DNA of 64,000 nt from Eledone cirrhosa (GCA_964016885.1 OZ024740.1:276582001-276646000), one strand, 5' to 3'. Shown: positions 6,075 to 53,378, counted from the first letter of the stretch. Numbers and translations: made by a program. Notes: generated by a model from the letters alone, not told the origin.

Positions 6075-6600
6075 GTGGAACACTGGAAGGTAATATCCGT
6101 AGTGGTAGAGCACTCAGTCCATGGGACGAGTTGGGTAGAAGTGGTTACACAACAGTTAGTTCACCATACCGAGAACAATTGTTTCACCTTAGCGGATCCT
6201 CAGCTCGTAATGGGCATGGGTATAGGAACAGGAAACACAACCGTACGAACGTGCATGCGCAGAAACTCGGCCACCTCACACAGGCAATACTAGAATGCAT
6301 GCGAAAGAGATTACGCAATAGTGATTGCCTAAACACGAGGAATGAATTTTTCACACGTTGTCCACACGTCGCCAATCACCTATTGCATTACTACAAAGCT
6401 CCGGATTGATTCCTTGTAATTTTATTTTCAACTAAAAATTTTCGGACTTTCCCAGTTATCTCCCTTACACCTCTCCCACGCATTCTAGTATTGCCTGTGT
6501 GAAGTGACCGGGTTTCTGCGCATGCGCGTTCGTACGGTTGTCCGCTAAGGTGAAACAATTGTTCTCGGTATGGTGAACTAACTGTTGTGTAATCACTTTT
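6071..6600. mobile_element. Fold-back PLE-like element in (TA)n
   Basis: Inverted arms about 6140-6300 and 6480-6598, extra tail 6071-6139, both ends in (TA)n; partial copy at 51789-51933. Confidence 0.75.
6170..6207 (-). ncRNA. Minimal type I hammerhead ribozyme
   Basis: cgag-CUGAGGA-uccgcuaaggu-GAAA-caauu-GUU-cucg; 4-bp stem I, palindromic stem III, weak stem II. Confidence 0.65.
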
Positions 6601-12931: not shown

Positions 12932-15336
12932 ATACATATTCACATATACATATATACATATACATACATATATATATACATACACACACACACGCAAACA
13001 TACATATATATATATATATATTTATATTTACACTCTACGTTTCCCTTTGACGGTAATAAAGTTAATATTGGATTCAAAGAGCTGCAGGTTAGTAGGAATA
13101 GATACAACAAATTAATTGGGAATGAGGAAGCTGTGAAAATGATGCACATTTGGGAGGAGGTAAATCTTTTTGTAGTTTTTCTCCTCTTCTAAAAATTAAT
13201 TGGCGAATAGGCAAGAGATATCAAGTTGGAAATTACAAGCTGTGGATATTCATGTTCTTAAACAAAATGCTGTTAGGCAACATGTTAAAATTTTAACTGT
13301 TATATTAAGTATTTATTTTATCGTCTTTACCATTGCGAAAAATGGCTGTGTGATTAGGAAGATCACTTTGCAACCATGTGATTTTGGGTTTGGTCCCCTG
13401 CGTGGCACTTTGGAGATGTTTTCTGTTATAGCTTAGGATTGAACAACGCTTTAATTCTAGCCAATCACACGAACCCTTTTTCGAAAAGCGGGTCGTATGA
13501 GACATGGTTCATCATCAGGCGGGCTGCAAACACTAATTTACATTCGTACCTACATTTAAAAAAAGGGTGGAAACTCAAGTTGTTTTGAATTGTTTCTTCA
13601 GAATTCGTACACGTTGTTTTCCCCGATCGTAAAAGTGATAGAAAGATAAATTACGACTGAAAAGTTGGGGTAAAAAAATCAGAAAGGTTTCACTTAGTTG
13701 ACTTAGGTGAGCCATTCAGTAAGCTTCGCTGGCTGCAGGTTGCCTATGACTGCTATAGATGGAAAAAGTGAACAGCAGCCGTTACGAAGAATCGAACTCC
13801 GTATCGTGTCTAAATTAGAAACCAATATTGAGCTGTTGTTGCTGTTTGTTTGAGCAACAAGTTACACCCATCTTCTTTCATTTAAGTAGACTGAGTTTTT
13901 TGAAAATTGTCTTGGTCACGGAAAAACATTGACTGCTAGTGTTAATTCATGAACAACGAATCTTTCGACTGGTTGTTCATCAGTACTCTCGTTAAAATAA
14001 ACATCAATTGCAACCACACTATATCTAATCTAGTTCTCGTTTAGTTCAACATGTAGACATAAACAAGAACATGTACATTTTTATTCTATTTGTAATTTCC
14101 TTTGCCAGCTTTGTTTCTTACGTCTACTTAGTTGCAAGAACTTTATTGGGAATGGTTGATTGCCTGGTTATTGTTTAGACAGTTTGTCAGATAATCAAAG
14201 CTAAGACACTAGAATTCAAGAAGGCGAATGATAGTCGGAAGTAGCTAAATAAACAACAAAAAACAACAACAACAGTTCAATAAGGAGCAAAATATAGATA
14301 ATATTAGCGTCTCATGAGAAGGTTCTAACGATTCAGACAGAGCCCTTCTTTGAGGAATGCCAGTTAACACGATTGCTAATTTATTAAAAGAACTCGAGTG
14401 AATAACATTGAGTGATAAATGAAGATAAAGAGAAAGAAGATGTGAAGGCCAATCTATAAAACAGAGACTGTTTTATTGACAACGACAAAACAATGTGTAT
14501 GTGTGTAGTGGGAAGCAGTGTAGCGATCGAGTAACCTGTTGAGGTGATGCCAAAATAAATAACGAGGGTGAGGAAGATGAAGATGATGGTGCAGGAGAAA
14601 GGAGTAGAGAATAGGAGAGAATTATATTGATATATAACGACCAAAGTCAAAGTGTCTTAAAGGGTTAAGACTGAAAATTTTTTCTTGAATTGAGGTCAAA
14701 GTTTGAACGTATATCAGAATAAAATTCTTGAATGGCGTTAGGCTTCCAAATAAATAGACTAAACGTGTATGTGTTTGTGCATCAATTTGTCTTGGTATTT
14801 TATTGCATTAAACAAGGTTGAGATTCAAACTAGATACTTTGTATTGATTCTTCAATTAAATTAATTCTTATATAAAATTAGACCAATAAAATTAACATAG
14901 TAATATTCTGAGGCAACTCTATTTCCGCTCCAGTTATGCTTAGTAAAAATAACATCAGTACTTAAAATTATATTGACACATAGTGGCTACAGAAGCAAAA
15001 CCATTTGACGTATGAATATCGCTACTAAGAAAGATACATGTTACTCATCTAGTTACATATATGAAGCTTTAAAGAGAATAAAACCGAAGAATATTTTCCT
15101 TCTTTAAATACATTTATTCAGAAAAAAAAACTCCATTTTATCAAAGGTAGTTATCGTTGTTCGTTTGGCTCCTGGTCAATCGTGATGTAACAAAGCTATA
15201 ATACGTAGGTAGTTCGTTCCATAGATAGCATTTCCTTCCCTAGCTGAGAATCACACTGCACACCCCAACATGCGATGAATCGTGCCGGGTGGGAGTGTAA
15301 CATTTTTATGTAGATATGATGTATGTTTGTATAACA

Positions 15337-20151: not shown

Positions 20152-20237
20152 AAAATGGAACGGGAACAAAACAGAGAGGCAGTACGAACAAAGGTTTATT
20201 AGTTTCACGCTCTTGAGGGTGGGCTGGTGGTGGGGAA

Positions 20238-20270
20238 CGACGTTTCGGGCATAAGCCCTTCTTCAGGCGA
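20238..20270 (-). ncRNA. Minimal hammerhead motif in a PLE-like 3' fragment (20147-20720)
   Basis: CUGAAGA-a-gggc-uuau-gccc-GAAA-c-GUC; palindromic ACGU stem III; weak stem I. Confidence 0.6.
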
Positions 20271-21781: not shown

Positions 21782-21997
21782 TATGTATACGTACATACAC
21801 ATATGTATACAGACGTACAGTAGTATGTATATATATATATATATATACATACATACATGCACACATATATATATGTACGTATGGATTCACCGAACATTTA
21901 TTATAATGCTCGGTGTGTTTGTAAACAAACATCCCTAATTAAGCCGTACAGTGTCTAGCAACCATCGTTGCTCATTTGTTCAACACTGACAAAGGAA

Positions 21998-22038
21998 CGC
22001 TGTACTAGTTTCAAGCTTATTAGCTCTCGTCAGCAACG
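21998..22038 (-). ncRNA. Minimal type I hammerhead ribozyme
   Basis: cguug-CUGACGA-gagc-uaauaa-gcuu-GAAA-cua-GUA-cagcg; 5-bp stem I, 4-bp stem II, palindromic ACUAGU stem III. Confidence 0.8.
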
Positions 22039-22229
22039 TATACCTTCCTGTCAGTAAAATTGAACGTCTGAAAGTATATACTCTCCTTATGCATATTAAT
22101 GGCTTTCCGTTTATTATTTTCGGTACCCCGGCCGATTAACTCACTCGATATGCAAATTAGGCTGCTCAGCCATTAATATGCATAAGGAAAGTATATACTT
22201 TCAGACGTTCAATCTGTCAGGAAGGTATA

Positions 22230-22270
22230 CGTTGCTGACGATAGCTAATAAGCTTGAAACTAGTACAGCG
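22230..22270 (+). ncRNA. Hammerhead, mirror copy with U-U mismatch at the base of stem II
   Basis: cguug-CUGACGA-uagc-uaauaa-gcuu-GAAA-cua-GUA-cagcg. Confidence 0.7.
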
Positions 22271-22713
22271 TTCCTTTGTCAGGGTTGAACAAATGAAAAA
22301 CGATGGTTGCTAGACACTGTACGGCTTAATTAGGGATGTTTGTTTACAAACACACCGAACATTATAATAAATGTTCGGTGAATCCATACGTACATATATA
22401 TATGTGTGCATGTATGTATATATATATATATACATACTACTGTACGTCTGTATACATATATGTATGTACGTATACATACTTATATTTAAGTAACAGCCGT
22501 ACTAAGAGTGAGAAATGAAATTTCGTTTCATTTTTTCCGTTTATATATATATATATATATATATATAAATTTTGAGTATATGTTGGTTGTTTACCGATAT
22601 GATTCCAGTTCCTCAGAGAAATAACAACCCAACCAGGAGCTGGACATATCGGAGTATTGACGGAGTAAAACACTTCAACAACATGTGTACCTGTCTCTAC
22701 CACACGAATTCGG

Positions 22714-22854: not shown

Positions 22855-23710
<856 letters not shown>

Positions 23711-39005: not shown

Positions 39006-39316
<311 letters not shown>

Positions 39317-39429: not shown

Positions 39430-40559
39430 CCATTCCCATTCTCTGTCTCCCTCTGTCTATGTCTCTCTTTCAATCTACTCTTTCACAAACACTATCTCTT
39501 TCTCTCTATCCTTCTCTCTCGCTATTTATGGAGGTACCCAGAAAACCCCATATCTTGTTTTATTCCATTTGTATTCCCATTTCAGGGTCAACTTCCTTTC
39601 AAAGTATTTCCCATTATGCGCCCCTGCGGCTGTATTACATTACAGACAAGCAAGCAAGCAATCACAGACTTTTAGTATTATATAGATAGATGACCACATC
39701 AGCGAAGCCTAATATTTCTTCTTATTGTTTTTTTCTGTTTCTGGTATCGAGTTGAAAGACTAAGATTACAGCTAATGTGAATTATTTACTTTTGTAGTTT
39801 TACAGTTACCAGCATTACATTTCTTTTACTGTTTAGCCAAGGAGGGAAGAGCAATGACTATGACTCTTTCTAGTGCTTCTGGAGCGGTTCGGAAAAAGGA
39901 AGACATTTTGAAATCGTGGACTTAGTTCGAAAGCTTGAGCAGAATAGACTTCGCTAAAGGTACACAAGAGCCAGGTGGTGGCGTTAAATCAAGTTACCGT
40001 TGACGTCTTCAATTCAAGATGAGATCTACCACAATATAACATTTAAAAAAATCTACAATATGGTCTCCTTGTTTTCCCCAACTTAATTTCCATTACTCAT
40101 CGATCAAGTTCTTTCTAATCATTTTCTAATTATCGTTATAAATGATTATCGTAATAAATTGACAATTTAGTACAATTTGCGTTATATAAAGTAAGAAACT
40201 GAGACTCAGAAAATAACTGTAAACACAGTCGGCTGCTATAAATAATAGTTTTATTGACAGTAACAAACTGTGTCTAATCATTTTCTATGTTGGAGCTTCT
40301 CAACAGAGCTGTTCTGCTAGAGGACGGGTGGCAGGTGGCGGATAGCGATACGGCCACTAGATATGATGGCTAGTTGCGATATAAGCGGGCAGCTGCCTGA
40401 CGAATGAGCAACGCCAGGCCAAAAGTGGTAAACTACTAGGAGAGATGGAGCAATGGGTGACACCTGTGGCTCCCAAGAAAACTCTCACGACCCAGTGACG
40501 TAGCTATGACGAAGTGAGTAAAGGCTGCCTAAAAATTAAAAAAAGCCTAGTCTTCGTGG

Positions 40560-40795
40560 GTTTGACAAAGTACCAGATTGGTGACTGGCGTGAACGAGAC
40601 CCAGGGGTAAACCCAAAGCAAGAGGGTTGAATAAAATCCATGAGATTGGTTGGTCATCCTTGGGGATCCAGCTGTATCAGTTGGAGATGGATAACTCTGA
40701 CAGGACGTGCTGGAAGGAGTGTTTGAGGACTCTGCCCACACGACCCTCTCAGGAATGAGTGGGCGAAGAAAATAAGAAACAAAAAAGAAGAGGAG
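40560..40795 (+). mobile_element. RTE LINE 3' end
   Basis: Similar to 897-1100 (GAGACCCAGGGG, ATCCATGAG, GATCAGTTGGAGATGG, GACCCTCTCAGGAAT). Confidence 0.6.
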
Positions 40796-41572
40796 ATTCC
40801 AAGATTTTCTATGAACTTCATAACCCCTCACCCCTTCAAATGTTAGAACTTTGCATGAAATGTTCATATTTGTATATGCATATATCTTGTCAATTACCAT
40901 TCTAATGATAAATGATTTATACGTGTTTTATTTTAAAACTTATGTAAATATATTTATTTGCTTATTTCATATGGCTCTGTTCCATTTGTTTTCACAGCTA
41001 TGTAATATATTACAATTTGTGTGTTTGTATGTAATATACTCGCCGGCGAATTGGCAGAGTTATTAGAACGTCGGATAGAAAGCATTTCGGTATTTGTTTC
41101 GGCTCTGCTCTCTGAATCCAAATCCCACCGAGGTTAAATTTCGAGGTTAATAAGGAAGTACATGTCTAGTACTGGGGTCGACTCGCCCTCTATATCTCTT
41201 TCGCACTTCCTTTCTTTCACTTTCTATCATTCTTTGGAAGAAATCTGTTGTATTATAACATGGAGAGGAGATGGGCTCCGACAGGTTTAAAAAAACGCCC
41301 TAGAAACTCCGTGTGTCATTATGATGCCCCGACGACTCCATCAGTAGTCACGGGGCCGTACATGTCATGTAATATATTATAGTAGGAGAATGCTGTTGAT
41401 TCTTAACATTAGTATACAACGCCTCTTCATGTGTTATATATTTTTTGAAGAAATGTGTTAACCACTATTACATTACACAATTCATCCTCAACTACATAAT
41501 GAATCACAACTTTATTCATAAGTTAAACAAATTTATAATTCATGAATGTGTGCATAAGGATTTCTAGTATCA

Positions 41573-43867: not shown

Positions 43868-46280
43868 CCCAATCCTAATCCATTCTCATACTTCGCTCAA
43901 ATTTATGTCTTCCTACCATCGGCTGTTTTGATTCTGTCTGTTGAATCATAATACCTCCTCAAATTGTATCATTAATTCCATATTCGCACCCACACCATTA
44001 ACTACTCGTTTCAAAGAGTCACACTATGTGTGTAAGCCTCTTCATGCATCACTCACGTTCCATCTTATGCTCTTCCACTGTCCTCGGTTGTTGCTCATCA
44101 TAGTTCACTCATTATTTAGAACTTCTAAACCACGAACTGTTTGTGTTAGTTTTTCCACTTATTGCTCTCGATAAAGCTTCACTTCATCATTTAATCTCTT
44201 CTCTCATACACTACCTTCTTTCCTCCACTTTTGTTTTCTCTTTTCTTTATCCTTTAATTTTTTTTTTATATCCCGATTTCAGTCTAACAAACCCCTTTAC
44301 TTTAATTAGTTGTACTTCTCGCCAACTACAGCTTTATATAAACACTTACACCTTGTGTAACAGTCCCACTTCCAATAGTTTTTAACGACGCTAATTTTTT
44401 TTTTTTGTGAGTTTTATTGTATGATTAAAAATTGTGATTCATTATCTCTCTTTTTATCTCATCCATATGATTTTAAAAAATCAATGTTACTATTCTCAAT
44501 GAGATTAGACATGAAAAAGTTACACTGATATATGTTCTGGTTTACAATCAAAGCTGATTTATATCTCCAAACAGTGAAATAAATACCAGTGATCTACTGG
44601 TTTCAAAGCAGTCGAACATACATCACTATCAAAATAGGGAGCCATATAATGCCGATTATTGATCGGTAAGTGTCGACCAAATTGCGTTGTTTGTCGTTAC
44701 GACTATTTGCGTTCTGAGTTCAAATCCTGCTGAGGGGAATATTGTCTTTTACCCTTTCGGGGTTGATAAAATAAAGTTCTAGTCAAGTAGTGGTGATTCG
44801 ATTCATTCGACTCTCTCCGTTAATAAAATTAGACAAATTACTAACCTCGTTCCGAAATCAGAAAACATTAATATAATCGTAAATAAAAATTGTTGCCTCA
44901 AGAAGCATCGAGAAGAAGCGTGAGTGTATTTGAAATTCATAGGAATAATTTAGAACCTTGAACAAGAGATAGCTGTTAAAAGAGCTGAATGCCGTTATTG
45001 ACAGCATCATATAATATAATCATAATTCAACTAAAGCTATTGTGGATGTAGGTATTGCTAATTGGTTAAGGAGTCGGTTTCCCAAGATGCCACAAAATGA
45101 AATTGAATCCGGGACCCTCTGATGGCGAAGCGAACTTCTTAACCATACGGTAATGGCTGTCGACTCGTTATGGAATATAATTCTGATTGGCGCACCTCTT
45201 CCTCCTTTCATTCAAAGATGCAGTGCTTGTCCATTATGAGCTCTCAAGATGAGAGTTCGATTCCTCATGTCTGTCATTTTGGACAAATATTTTTTTTTAC
45301 CTTAGGTCGATCAAATCGATGTGTTAGTAAACGGAAACTATGTGGAAGCTCATCCATTGGGTTAACTACAAATAACTCAAAAGATAAATGTTGTCATATA
45401 CCTTGTGTGGAAAACAGAACCTTTTAAACCAAAGCTCAGCGTGCAGATAATCTAATTGATAAAACAACGACTCCAGTATATATTTCTATGTCTGGTACTT
45501 ATTTCATCTATTATATTTGTCGAGCTACTTATTAACAGGATTAAAACTTAAACTCTAACATCGGCTGTTAAGACATAAACGTGGACACTCACAAATATAT
45601 TTCACTCATAAGGGACTCTTCAACCTGAGGCTATAGTAGCAGTGGGTCTAAACTTGTGATTGCGAAGCAAATTTCGTAACTGCATGTGTGTGTGTGTATT
45701 TGTGTGTGTATGTGTGTGAGAGAGAGCGGTAAGAGCGTTCTATATCCGTAGCGTTATAGTGATATACGGCGTGTCCTGGGTATTTTAAACCTGCCAGAGC
45801 ACATCTCACCTCCAGTCTATATCAGTAGAAGAGCTATATAATTACTTATCGATACGACACAACAATATAGTGAAGACTTTTTATTGGCGATAATATATCA
45901 AATGTGCTTGGCGTTTTCTTCAGACATTAAAGGTAGGTTATCTAAAAAAAACACTGGTCCTAGCACGAAACAAGCTGTTATGTATGTATCTGTCTGTTTA
46001 CCTATCTATACATTCATCCCAGCATGGCTGATTGGATAAGGAGTTCGATTTTCGGCTAGTTGGTCTTAGATTCAGTCCTGCTGAGAGGAACTTTGGGCAA
46101 GTGTCTATTACAGCCTGGAGCTGACCAATTCCTTATATATATGCATATATAATGTATATATCGACATAGAATATATAAGAAACGCAGACGCAGAAAATAA
46201 CTGTAAACACAGTTGGTTGCTATAAATAATAGCTTTGAAAATCGTGTAAAATACCCCTGTGGACAGAAAAAGGGGCCAGC

Positions 46281-46353
46281 GGGCGTTACAAGGAATCGAA
46301 CAAAGTTTCTTTCGGATTCCAGCTGACTGCTATAACCATTTAGCTAAACGTCC
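46281..46353 (-). ncRNA. Degenerate tRNA-like Pol III unit
   Basis: GGACGTT/AACGCCC acceptor stem (6 of 7 pairs), perfect D-stem GCTA/TAGC, A-box TAGCTAAATGG, B-box GTTCGATTCC, TTTTT about 10 nt downstream; anticodon and T stems mismatched. Confidence 0.6.
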
Positions 46354-46525
46354 ATAGTCATCGTTCTCCGTCTTAGTTAGAAAGTTAAATCGAATTGAAA
46401 GGATCGAACTTTCAAAGTGCTGAGGGGTTATGAATTTCATAGAAATACGGTTTTAGGAAGCCGTAGCTATGTAAACACCGGGGCTAACGCCCTCTGGTGG
46501 TGTCCAGCAGAAGCAAGGGGGGACA

Positions 46526-46569
46526 ACCGTCTATGCATTTCAGGCTTGACTGGCCTTCGTCAGGACGGT
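46526..46569 (-). ncRNA. Canonical minimal type I hammerhead ribozyme
   Basis: accguc-CUGACGA-aggc-cagucaa-gccu-GAAA-ugc-AUA-gacggu; perfect 6-bp stem I, 4-bp stem II, palindromic AUGCAU stem III. Confidence 0.85.
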
Positions 46570-46717
46570 CCCTCCCACCGCTTGTACTGCTGGACTTGTA
46601 AACAGTCGAGAATATATAGTTTTCTCGTCTGTGTAAATTTCTATACATATTGTATAAAGTTATGCTTGAAGCGAAATCTTATTTCTCTTATATATATATA
46701 TACAACACACACACACA

Positions 46718-46931: not shown

Positions 46932-47024
46932 CGAAGGAAATGTGGTAAGGAACCAGGTGGACTAGGAGTACAGAATTAGCCGTCGAAACGGCTTGAGCTC
47001 AGCCGTCGGGGTCTTACTTGTTCC

Positions 47025-47057
<33 letters not shown>

Positions 47058-47256
47058 AAGTATAGAATGTTCCTCTGCCTCGTATATATCTATATCTATA
47101 TCTATATATAACAAAGAGGCTGTGGTAAGCTACCAGGTGGACCATAACGCACCAGAGTACTCAATACTTAGGGTAGTAGAGTGGGTAATAGGAAAAGAGT
47201 CCAAACTGTCGGATCTAGCTGTCGAAACGGCCGGAGCTCAGCCGTCGGCTCCTGAC
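46930..47256. mobile_element. Two family A inverted elements in (TA)n
   Basis: 46930-47024 and 47110-47256. Confidence 0.7.
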
Positions 47257-47285
47257 TACCCCCCCCCTCTCTCTCTATATATATC

Positions 47286-48589: not shown

Positions 48590-50120
<1,531 letters not shown>

Positions 50121-51887: not shown

Positions 51888-51925
51888 CAAGAACAACTGT
51901 TTCACCTTAGCGGATCCTCAGCTCG
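51888..51925 (-). ncRNA. Hammerhead motif, same family as 6170-6207
   Basis: cgag-CUGAGGA-uccgcuaaggu-GAAA-caguu-GUU-cuug. Confidence 0.55.
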
Positions 51926-53184: not shown

Positions 53185-53378
53185 AACAAGTAAGACCCCG
53201 ACGGCTGAGCTCAAGCCGTTTCGACGGCTAATTCTGGACTGAGTCCAGAATTAGCCGTCGAAACGGCTTGAGCTCAGCCGTCGGGGTCTTACTTGTTCGT
53301 ATTACCCACTCTACTACCCTAAGTATTGAGTACTTTGGTGCGTTATGGTCCACCTGGTTCCTTACCACATTTCCTTCG

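What the first reader, a model, noticed from the sequence alone, without database searches (positions are those of the whole stretch)
46190..46690. Composite element: perfect hammerhead ribozyme plus tRNA-like Pol III unit with terminator
Seen: read on the - strand from a (TA)n tract, there is first a textbook hammerhead (46526-46569). It is enclosed by an outer imperfect stem (GTCCAGCAGAAGC at 46502-46514 vs GCTTGTACTGCTGGAC at 46580-46595). About 170 nt further on is a 73-nt cloverleaf-like unit (46281-46353) with A-box, B-box and TTTTT directly after. Decayed pieces of the same element lie at about 40207-40250 and 40805-40835. Established: animal non-LTR retrozymes and schistosome SM-alpha combine Pol III promoters with hammerheads, and PLE termini carry minimal hammerheads. 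Inference: here the ribozyme is upstream of a self-terminated tRNA-like unit, so it is not a simple SINE. It could be a retrozyme/PLE-type family carrying its own tRNA-like cassette, where ribozyme cleavage and RNase P/Z-type processing define the RNA ends.
Basis: partly seen in the sequence, partly recalled or inferred. Interest (0 to 1): 0.8.

Follow-up and report, generated by a model that had tools for sequence, protein, structure and literature searches.

The report
Two unrelated mobile repeats, chance neighbours
The self-cutting RNA motif and the tRNA-like unit belong to two separate repeat families that were found joined only at this one spot in the genome; the first is a likely member of a known class of ribozyme retroelements, and the second is an older, ribozyme-free, tRNA-bearing repeat that was likely spread by the same Penelope-type copying machinery.

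Summary
Both motifs are real, but they do not form one element. The hammerhead (46526-46569, minus strand) is a minimal type I motif inside family A. A is a young 322-bp head-to-tail unit: 1,471 exact 18-mer hits genome-wide, about 3% diverged, with (TA)n ends and 5' inversions. It is a likely non-LTR retrozyme. The cloverleaf belongs to family B, an older ~301-bp permuted unit (about 16% diverged) with no hammerhead. Two genome-wide patterns for the joined form each returned only this window. 0 of 59 A loci held B and 0 of 85 B loci held young A; roughly 0.1-0.6 such contacts are expected by chance. The 'decayed pieces' near 40.2 and 40.8 kb are B only. What remains of interest is B: a ribozyme-free, tRNA-bearing unit with Penelope-type insertion marks, whose 5' ends lean towards the tRNA start. 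Five paper searches did not find it described. The scan noted similar elements on other DNA before. No autonomous partner and no RNA data were found.

The parts
46635..46698 (+). Family A: 3' tail of the 322-bp unit, inverted relative to the core; runs into the (TA)n/(CA)n tract
   Evidence: Matches unit positions 261-332 at 88% in the opposite orientation; in other copies this tail follows the core directly
46441..46638 (-). Family A core (unit positions ~50-250), truncated at its 3' end
   Evidence: 93-97% identity to most of the best genomic hits; 2.5-5% from the column majority
46526..46569 (-). Minimal type I hammerhead with palindromic stem III; predicted cut between 46532 and 46531, likely as a dimer
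   Evidence: Core intact in 58 of 72 copies and palindrome in 68 of 72; stems I and II covary across older subfamilies
46502..46595 (-). Outer imperfect stem enclosing the hammerhead (arms 46580-46595 and 46502-46514), part of family A
   Evidence: MFE fold, z = -3.83
46439..46445 (.). A|B junction; 5 nt shared with canonical A, 7 nt with the A variant seen in L017
   Evidence: Side-by-side sequences; junction pattern has 1 hit genome-wide
46165..46445 (-). Family B: about one permuted monomer (tail piece, leader with a 27-nt deletion, tRNA-like unit, body, tail)
   Evidence: Profile positions 8-301, E 6.9e-55; alignment; 11.7% from the column majority, 18% from the nearest copy
46281..46353 (-). 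Decayed tRNA-derived cloverleaf with A and B boxes, part of family B
   Evidence: Rfam RF00005 19.8 bits, below cut-off; 75% of cells paired across 33 copies against 38-46% for slid controls, no covariation
46267..46271 (-). T5 run at +83 from the tRNA start (T7 in the family majority)
40197..40251 (-). Family B tail fragment, no hammerhead
   Evidence: Profile positions 247-301
40799..40864 (+). Family B tail fragment, opposite strand, no hammerhead
   Evidence: Profile positions 2-68
13749..13807 (-). Further family B fragment (T arm and trailer)
   Evidence: Profile positions 170-229

Best explanation
The hammerhead and the tRNA-like unit belong to two separate repeat families that were found joined only here, where a young copy of the 322-bp hammerhead repeat (A) likely inserted at the edge of an older ~301-bp tRNA-bearing repeat (B) through 5-7 shared bases. 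A likely works as a non-LTR retrozyme. Read-through transcripts of tandem copies would be cut by paired minimal hammerheads into monomers and closed into circles. A Penelope-like element's reverse transcriptase and endonuclease would then copy them into (TA)n tracts, giving permuted, more-than-one-unit inserts with inverted 5' pieces. B shows the same insertion marks without a ribozyme and was likely moved by the same machinery long ago. The most likely active role of its cloverleaf is to mark the monomer's 5' end as an RNase P site in read-through RNA (about 0.4); it may instead be a passenger (0.4) or a Pol III start (0.2). Shown: two families, their units, ages, tandem joints, inversions, single junction, hammerhead covariation. 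Inferred: order of insertion, cleavage, circles, PLE mobilisation, role of the cloverleaf.
For: The composite pattern has 1 hit and the junction pattern 1 hit, both the window itself, against 1,471 exact hits of the hammerhead 18-mer and 396 hits of a B 24-mer. 0 of 59 A loci (55 distinct places) hold B, and 0 of 85 B loci (83 distinct) hold young A within about 1.5 kb. Median divergence is 3.4% for A (n=25) and 15.9% for B (n=43). Expected chance contacts in this geometry: 0.06-0.59. A, read: head-to-tail joints in 13 of 28 distinct pattern-picked loci, inverted pieces in 12 of 28, mostly (TA)n flanks; direct hammerhead spacings of 311-322 bp. Hammerhead stems covary across 20 distinct sequences: 18 double-sided changes against 7.0 +/- 2.3, 0 of 500 shuffles. 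B: adjacent inversions in 7 of 29 and adjacent tandem joints in 5 of 29 tail-picked loci; 3' ends mostly at unit positions 12-25, microsatellite directly after in 11 of 27. RT plus C-terminal GIY-YIG ORFs exist in the genome. In one public sample, contigs matching this B copy stop fitting at 46445 and run on for 33 and 19 other letters.
Against: No autonomous PLE sharing sequence with A or B was found in 30 + 19 GIY-YIG loci or in the flanks of A and B loci, so PLE mobilisation rests on insertion anatomy only. The composite pattern is exact, and only 12 of 31 B copies keep its 10-mer, so a family of two or three composite copies could be missed. No target-site duplication and no remnant of B lie on the far side of A. 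The run-on letters of the public contigs were not displayed, so an empty-site allele is not shown. The pile-up of B 5' ends at the tRNA start is 16 of 25 in a set picked with a tRNA-containing query, but only 4 of 8 (P = 0.13) in the tail-picked set. The B cloverleaf shows no covariation. One of 20 old A relatives has a B fragment about 300 nt upstream, in the reverse order and separated by other repeats.
Confidence: 0.88

Rival explanations
1. One composite retrozyme/SINE family carries the hammerhead upstream of a tRNA-like cassette, with ribozyme and RNase P/Z defining its RNA ends.
For: Same strand, 172 nt apart, no microsatellite between them. Both parts show Penelope-type insertion marks. 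Schistosome SINE-like repeats combine a Pol III promoter and a hammerhead (PMC6765202, passages).
Against: Single hit for both joined-form patterns; no co-occurrence in 59 and 85 loci; 4-5-fold difference in divergence; each family has its own complete permuted unit without the other.
Confidence: 0.03
2. The joint is a one-off chimera made during a single insertion, when the reverse transcriptase switched from a B RNA to an A RNA at the shared bases, or by a later deletion that brought two separate inserts together.
For: 5-7 shared bases at the joint; 3' ends of both families often fall at a similar short T-rich motif; no target-site duplication.
Against: The B copy is 11.7% from its family majority and 18% from its nearest copy, while the A copy is 2.5-5% and 3-4%, so they were not made at the same time. 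This argues against a template switch but not against a later deletion.
Confidence: 0.09
3. Family B is an ordinary tRNA-derived SINE made by Pol III and a LINE; its tandem and inverted forms are secondary.
For: A and B boxes, 5' truncation gradient, 5' ends leaning to the tRNA start.
Against: The tail runs on into a conserved ~70-nt leader and then into the next tRNA in many unrelated loci. A T7 run at +82 and five T4 runs would stop Pol III long before the 3' ends seen at about +185 to +240. Inverted tail pieces abut the 5' end in 7 of 29 loci.
Confidence: 0.15
4. Family A is not a free-standing retrozyme but solo pLTRs (truncated 3' ends) of an autonomous Penelope-like element.
For: Minimal, palindromic type I hammerheads are typical of pLTRs (PMC7761336, PMC6765202, passages).
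Against: The tail joins straight back to the unit start with no ORF between in 13 of 28 loci. No PLE ORF adjoined A in a pLTR-like position in 59 young and 20 old loci.
Confidence: 0.12

Closest known systems
Animal non-LTR retrozymes (Cervera & de la Pena 2020, PMC7229834; Li, Clavereau & Pollet 2026 preprint 10.64898/2026.07.22.740005)
   Same: Family A: non-coding ~322-bp unit (within the ~170-400 nt range), type I hammerhead, direct tandem copies, strongly self-paired, co-existing with PLEs.
   Different: A has the minimal, palindromic hammerhead typical of PLE pLTRs and amphibian retrozymes rather than the stable helix III of most invertebrate retrozymes. It is dispersed mostly as 1-2 unit inserts with 5' inversions. 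circRNA was not tested. Family B has the architecture but no ribozyme.
Penelope-like elements, EN+ clades (Craig et al. 2021, PMC8557442)
   Same: 5' truncation, partial tandems, inverted 5' copies, microsatellite targets, unclear TSDs. Seen in both A and B.
   Different: Neither family encodes RT or GIY-YIG, and no shared sequence with the sampled PLEs was found.
Schistosome SM-alpha/Sj-alpha (via review PMC6765202; original paper not held)
   Same: Precedent for Pol III promoter plus hammerhead in one tandem unit.
   Different: There both lie in one repeat unit, promoter first. Here they belong to two families and were found together once.
Cassandra, Helenus and Ajax: small-RNA-derived non-autonomous LTR elements (Kojima 2024, PMC10886601)
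   Same: A small-RNA-gene-like module inside a non-autonomous retroelement that is not a plain SINE, as in B.
   Different: Those have LTRs and depend on LTR retrotransposons. B has no LTR pair and shows permuted tandems and 5' inversions.
tRNA-derived SINEs
   Same: B has a tRNA-derived part with A and B boxes and is 5'-truncated.
   Different: B is circularly permuted, has a terminator-like run right behind the tRNA and inverted 5' pieces, and no LINE tail was identified.

Membership tests
   1 hit each for two patterns; 0 of 59 and 0 of 85 loci
Non-LTR retrozyme (family A) | Type I hammerhead in the repeat unit, under selection | tested here: met
   Core intact in 58 of 72 copies; covariation, 0 of 500 shuffles
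Non-LTR retrozyme (family A) | Non-coding unit of about 170-400 nt in direct tandem copies | tested here: met
   322-bp unit with head-to-tail joints; hammerhead spacings 311-334 bp
Non-LTR retrozyme (family A) | Highly self-paired monomer | tested here: met
   Circular fold of one natural copy -98.5 kcal/mol, z = -5.6 against 60 shuffles
Non-LTR retrozyme (family A) | Self-cleavage in vitro | not testable with these tools
   Needs an assay; only 1 of 9 Xenopus dimers cleaved in the 2026 preprint
Non-LTR retrozyme (family A) | Expressed as linear and circular monomer RNA | tested here: inconclusive
   No RNA holder listed
Non-LTR retrozyme (family B) | Hammerhead in the unit | tested here: not met
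   No CUGANGA on the sense strand of the unit; no hammerhead in 29 B loci
PLE-mobilised non-autonomous element (A and B) | Partial tandems, inverted 5' pieces, microsatellite targets | tested here: met
   A: 13 and 12 of 28. B: 5 and 7 of 29; microsatellite after 3' end in 11 of 27
PLE-mobilised non-autonomous element (A and B) | Sequence shared with the pLTR or 3' end of an autonomous PLE | tested here: inconclusive
   None in 49 sampled GIY-YIG loci out of more than 10,000 candidates
Autonomous PLE | RT and GIY-YIG ORF | tested here: not met
   Units close on themselves without an ORF; no PLE protein match in the window
tRNA-derived SINE (family B) | tRNA-derived part with A and B boxes | tested here: met
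   ARAGORN at a relaxed threshold of 40 B copies (four rows of another family left out)
tRNA-derived SINE (family B) | Element begins at the tRNA and has no strong terminator inside | tested here: not met
   Leader upstream in 9 of 25 and 4 of 8 copies that reach the tRNA start; T7 at +82
tRNA-derived SINE (family B) | 3' tail shared with a LINE; target-site duplications | not tested
   No LINE library search; TSDs hard to read in microsatellites
Functional tRNA gene | Passes tRNA models | tested here: not met
   19.8 bits against 29; ARAGORN 0

The most novel reading that the evidence does not exclude
Family B is a ribozyme-free counterpart of retrozymes: a Penelope-mobilised non-autonomous element in which a tRNA cloverleaf replaces the hammerhead, so that host RNase P cuts read-through multimers into ~301-nt monomers that a Penelope-type RT copies into microsatellites. 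It would be a tRNA-derived, SINE-like partner of Penelope-like elements.
Probability: 0.3. Interest if true: 0.72.

Novelty: new variant of a known kind. Interest (0 to 1): 0.42.

Why it matters
The composite as reported is not a family, so that claim should be dropped. Family A adds a young retrozyme family with a long series of older subfamilies whose hammerhead stems covary; a natural dimer is available for a cleavage test. Family B matters more. SINE-LINE partnerships are well known, but my five searches found no tRNA-derived element moved by Penelope-like elements. If the cloverleaf replaces the ribozyme as the cutting signal, it would bear on the open question of what hammerheads do for PLEs and retrozymes. 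B is old, so tests would need younger analogues; the scan's notes point to some in other genomes.

Tried and rejected
Rfam at gathering score and ARAGORN on the window: nothing. Search for an autonomous partner: 30 GIY-YIG loci with 1.5-kb flanks and 19 of 10 kb shared no sequence with A or B. PLE protein matches in A and B loci were scattered fragments at no fixed position. Twenty diverged hammerheads with the same palindrome turned out to be older A subfamilies, not PLE ends. RNA runs: no RNA holder listed; this is no evidence on expression. Empty-site allele: I first read a joint row as one. I withdrew it because its depth differs from the long contigs and its letters match another B copy (L057). 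What stands is only that two contigs of one sample stop fitting at 46445. Cloverleaf covariation: one search used a mis-registered structure and is void; the corrected one search shows pairing kept but no covariation (148 of 500 shuffles reach the score). An antisense hammerhead-like core in the B majority lacks proper stems and is absent from the window copy; rejected. Identity of the source tRNA: relaxed ARAGORN calls mostly Thr, also Ile and Ala; not settled. Two papers were not held. A search for earlier octopus SINE names returned nothing, so an existing Repbase or Dfam entry for A or B cannot be excluded; supplementary repeat libraries of PMC13282606 were not opened.

Full report
Observation. 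On the minus strand 46569-46526 is a type I hammerhead: 6-bp stem I, CUGACGA, 4-bp stem II, GAAA, then UGCA-UA. The enclosing stem is real (111-nt fold, z = -3.83). It is the minimal kind. Stem III is the self-complementary hexamer AUGCAU; closing one pair in the monomer raises the energy from -11.2 to -5.8 kcal/mol, while two copies pair at -4.7. Rfam found no hammerhead. The cloverleaf at 46353-46281 scores 19.8 bits against a cut-off of 29 and is missed by ARAGORN. Its T5 run begins 9 nt after the discriminator. Hammerhead cores are frequent in this window: 18 matches at 11 places against 2.15 expected.

Two families. A search of the 3.0-Gb own genome with 46240-46680 gave hits that end at or before query position 254, short of the tRNA part (40 of 3,009 candidates scored). 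A search with 46185-46432 gave a different set at 73-89% identity for the main hits (40 of 1,320 scored). Cross-checks: 0 of 29 top A loci held the spacer, tRNA or tail, and 0 of 29 top B loci held the hammerhead. With the full B profile, 0 of 59 A loci (55 distinct places) held B, and 0 of 85 B loci (83 distinct) held young A. One weak hit of an earlier, tRNA-headed profile in L103 was another SINE 260 nt away. Genome-wide, the hammerhead 18-mer has 1,471 exact hits. The hammerhead-plus-D-arm pattern at the window's spacing +/-15 has 1 hit, and the junction pattern has 1, both the window. These patterns are exact and only 12 of 31 B copies keep the D-arm 10-mer, so two or three further copies could be missed, but not a family. 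A rough estimate of chance contacts in this geometry is 0.06-0.59. The pieces at 40197-40251 and 40799-40864 are B tail only.

Family A. It is a 322-bp unit whose tail joins back to its start. Reading (30 pattern-picked loci, 28 distinct), 13 show a head-to-tail joint and 12 an inverted piece; most are flanked by (TA)n. Direct hammerhead pairs lie 311-334 bp apart. The window holds an inverted tail (46635-46698, +) and a truncated core (46638-46441, -). Median divergence from the column majority is 3.4% (n=25) and the window copy's is 2.5-5%. A relaxed pattern gave 411 hits. Twenty diverged ones that I fetched were older subfamilies at 68-82% identity (best match each), with compensatory changes in stems I and II: 18 double-sided changes against 7.0 +/- 2.3, 0 of 500 shuffles (the tool warns that related sequences can beat shuffles, and these were picked for an intact core). 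This fits the non-LTR retrozymes of Cervera & de la Pena 2020 (PMC7229834; abstract, sections 14 and 17 read) and Li et al. 2026 (10.64898/2026.07.22.740005; parts 1-3 of 5 read). Minimal palindromic hammerheads are reported to cleave as dimers (PMC6765202 and PMC7761336, passages). Cleavage, circles and PLE-driven insertion are inferred, not shown. The window's lone hammerhead would not be expected to cut efficiently in cis.

Family B. It is a ~301-bp unit: tail, ~70-nt leader, cloverleaf, trailer with a T7 run at +82, body, tail. A tail-leader-tRNA query hit many unrelated loci over most of its length, so the unit is permuted like A. In 29 loci picked by a tail 24-mer alone, 7 have an adjacent inverted piece and 5 an adjacent tandem joint. 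3' ends fall mostly at unit positions 12-25, with a microsatellite directly after in 11 of 27; 5' ends are staggered. These are the marks that Craig et al. 2021 describe for PLE insertions (PMC8557442, passages). The 24-mer has 396 hits with at most one mismatch, pointing to roughly 1,300-6,000 copies. Median divergence is 15.9% (n=43); the window copy is 11.7% from the majority and 18% from its nearest copy. There is no hammerhead core on the sense strand. The cloverleaf pairs in 75% of cells against 38-46% when slid, but shows no covariation (33 of 44 extracted rows used; four rows of another family and seven partial or gapped ones left out, the window copy counted among the 33). 5' ends stop within -14 to +16 of the tRNA start in 16 of 25 copies that reach it in a set picked with a tRNA-containing query. 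In the tail-picked set they do so in 4 of 8 (expected 26%, P = 0.13). This is suggestive only.

The junction. A and B overlap by 5 bases, or 7 with the A variant seen in L017. Given the age gap, A most likely arrived later and joined B through these bases. There is no target-site duplication and no B remnant beyond A, so a deletion may have contributed. In one public sample (three runs, contigs only), two contigs match this B copy (one with 0 differences over 46220-46445), stop fitting at 46445 and run on for 33 and 19 letters that were not displayed. No listed contig bridged the junction. This hints at a version of the locus without A but does not show it.

Mechanism for B (inferred). Pol III starting at the cloverleaf would meet T7 at +82 and five T4 runs, well before the observed 3' ends. 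Full-length templates therefore more likely came from read-through RNA. RNase P cutting at each cloverleaf would give monomers that begin at the tRNA, the role the hammerhead plays in A (0.4). The tRNA may equally be a passenger (0.4) or a leaky Pol III start (0.2). The role of RNase P in cutting tRNA-like structures is recalled, not from a call.

Partner. The genome holds many GIY-YIG frames (150 scored of 10,595 candidates). Two long ORFs scanned both carry RT, and one also matches GIY-YIG at its C-terminus; a cysteine-rich linker suggests the Neptune clade (recalled motif). None of 49 sampled loci shared sequence with A or B.

Literature and earlier notes. Five searches (listings, plus passages of PMC10886601 and PMC6765202) found no tRNA-bearing, ribozyme-free element moved by PLEs. 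Subscription papers, Repbase and Dfam were not searchable. Passages of an octopus repeat annotation (PMC13282606) do not mention ribozymes; its supplements were not opened. After I had reached this reading (stated), two unchecked scan notes on other genomes turned out to describe similar tRNA-bearing Penelope-type units. They are not independent support.

Verdict. The composite element is not a family. A is a new member of a known kind. B is a likely new variant of non-autonomous PLE-type elements, with an open role for its tRNA. Interest 0.42.

Noticed in passing
window 21871-22397: A ~530-bp inverted repeat (89% identity) carrying two minimal hammerheads (22003-22033 minus, 22235-22265 plus) with a different palindromic stem III; likely another retrozyme or pLTR insert with a 5' inversion.
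   Followed up: partly
window 49203-49530: Hammerhead-bearing repeat (core 49399-49434, minus) that is 82-92% identical to stretches near GIY-YIG ORFs in L158, L173 and L176; possibly a PLE end or another retrozyme family.
   Followed up: partly
window 6173-6203, 51891-51921, 20235-20266, 23058-23086, 13955-13983: Further hammerhead-like cores; 6173 and 51891 are two copies of one family.
   Followed up: no
window 46958-47000 and 47199-47260; also 784-817, 39235-39291, 53207-53275: A short GC-rich repeat found in direct and inverted pieces beside (TA)n tracts, also in flanks of several A loci; may be another microsatellite-targeting element.
   Followed up: no
window 46020-46135: A decayed SINE-like piece of another family lies just beyond the B copy, on the plus strand (read; family assignment recalled, not tested).
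   Followed up: no
window 40280-40800: A GC-richer insert separates two oppositely oriented B tail pieces; a similar sequence precedes the B copy in L127. The two pieces may be one inverted B insertion split later.
   Followed up: no
G000:C1:143348625-143966373: Eight A hammerhead hits on the same strand, mostly about 60 kb apart, suggesting a segmental tandem duplication that carries one A copy.
   Followed up: no
L158:1775-5065: A 1,096-codon open frame with an RT match that ends at a GIY-YIG hit; looks like an intact Penelope-like element.
   Followed up: partly
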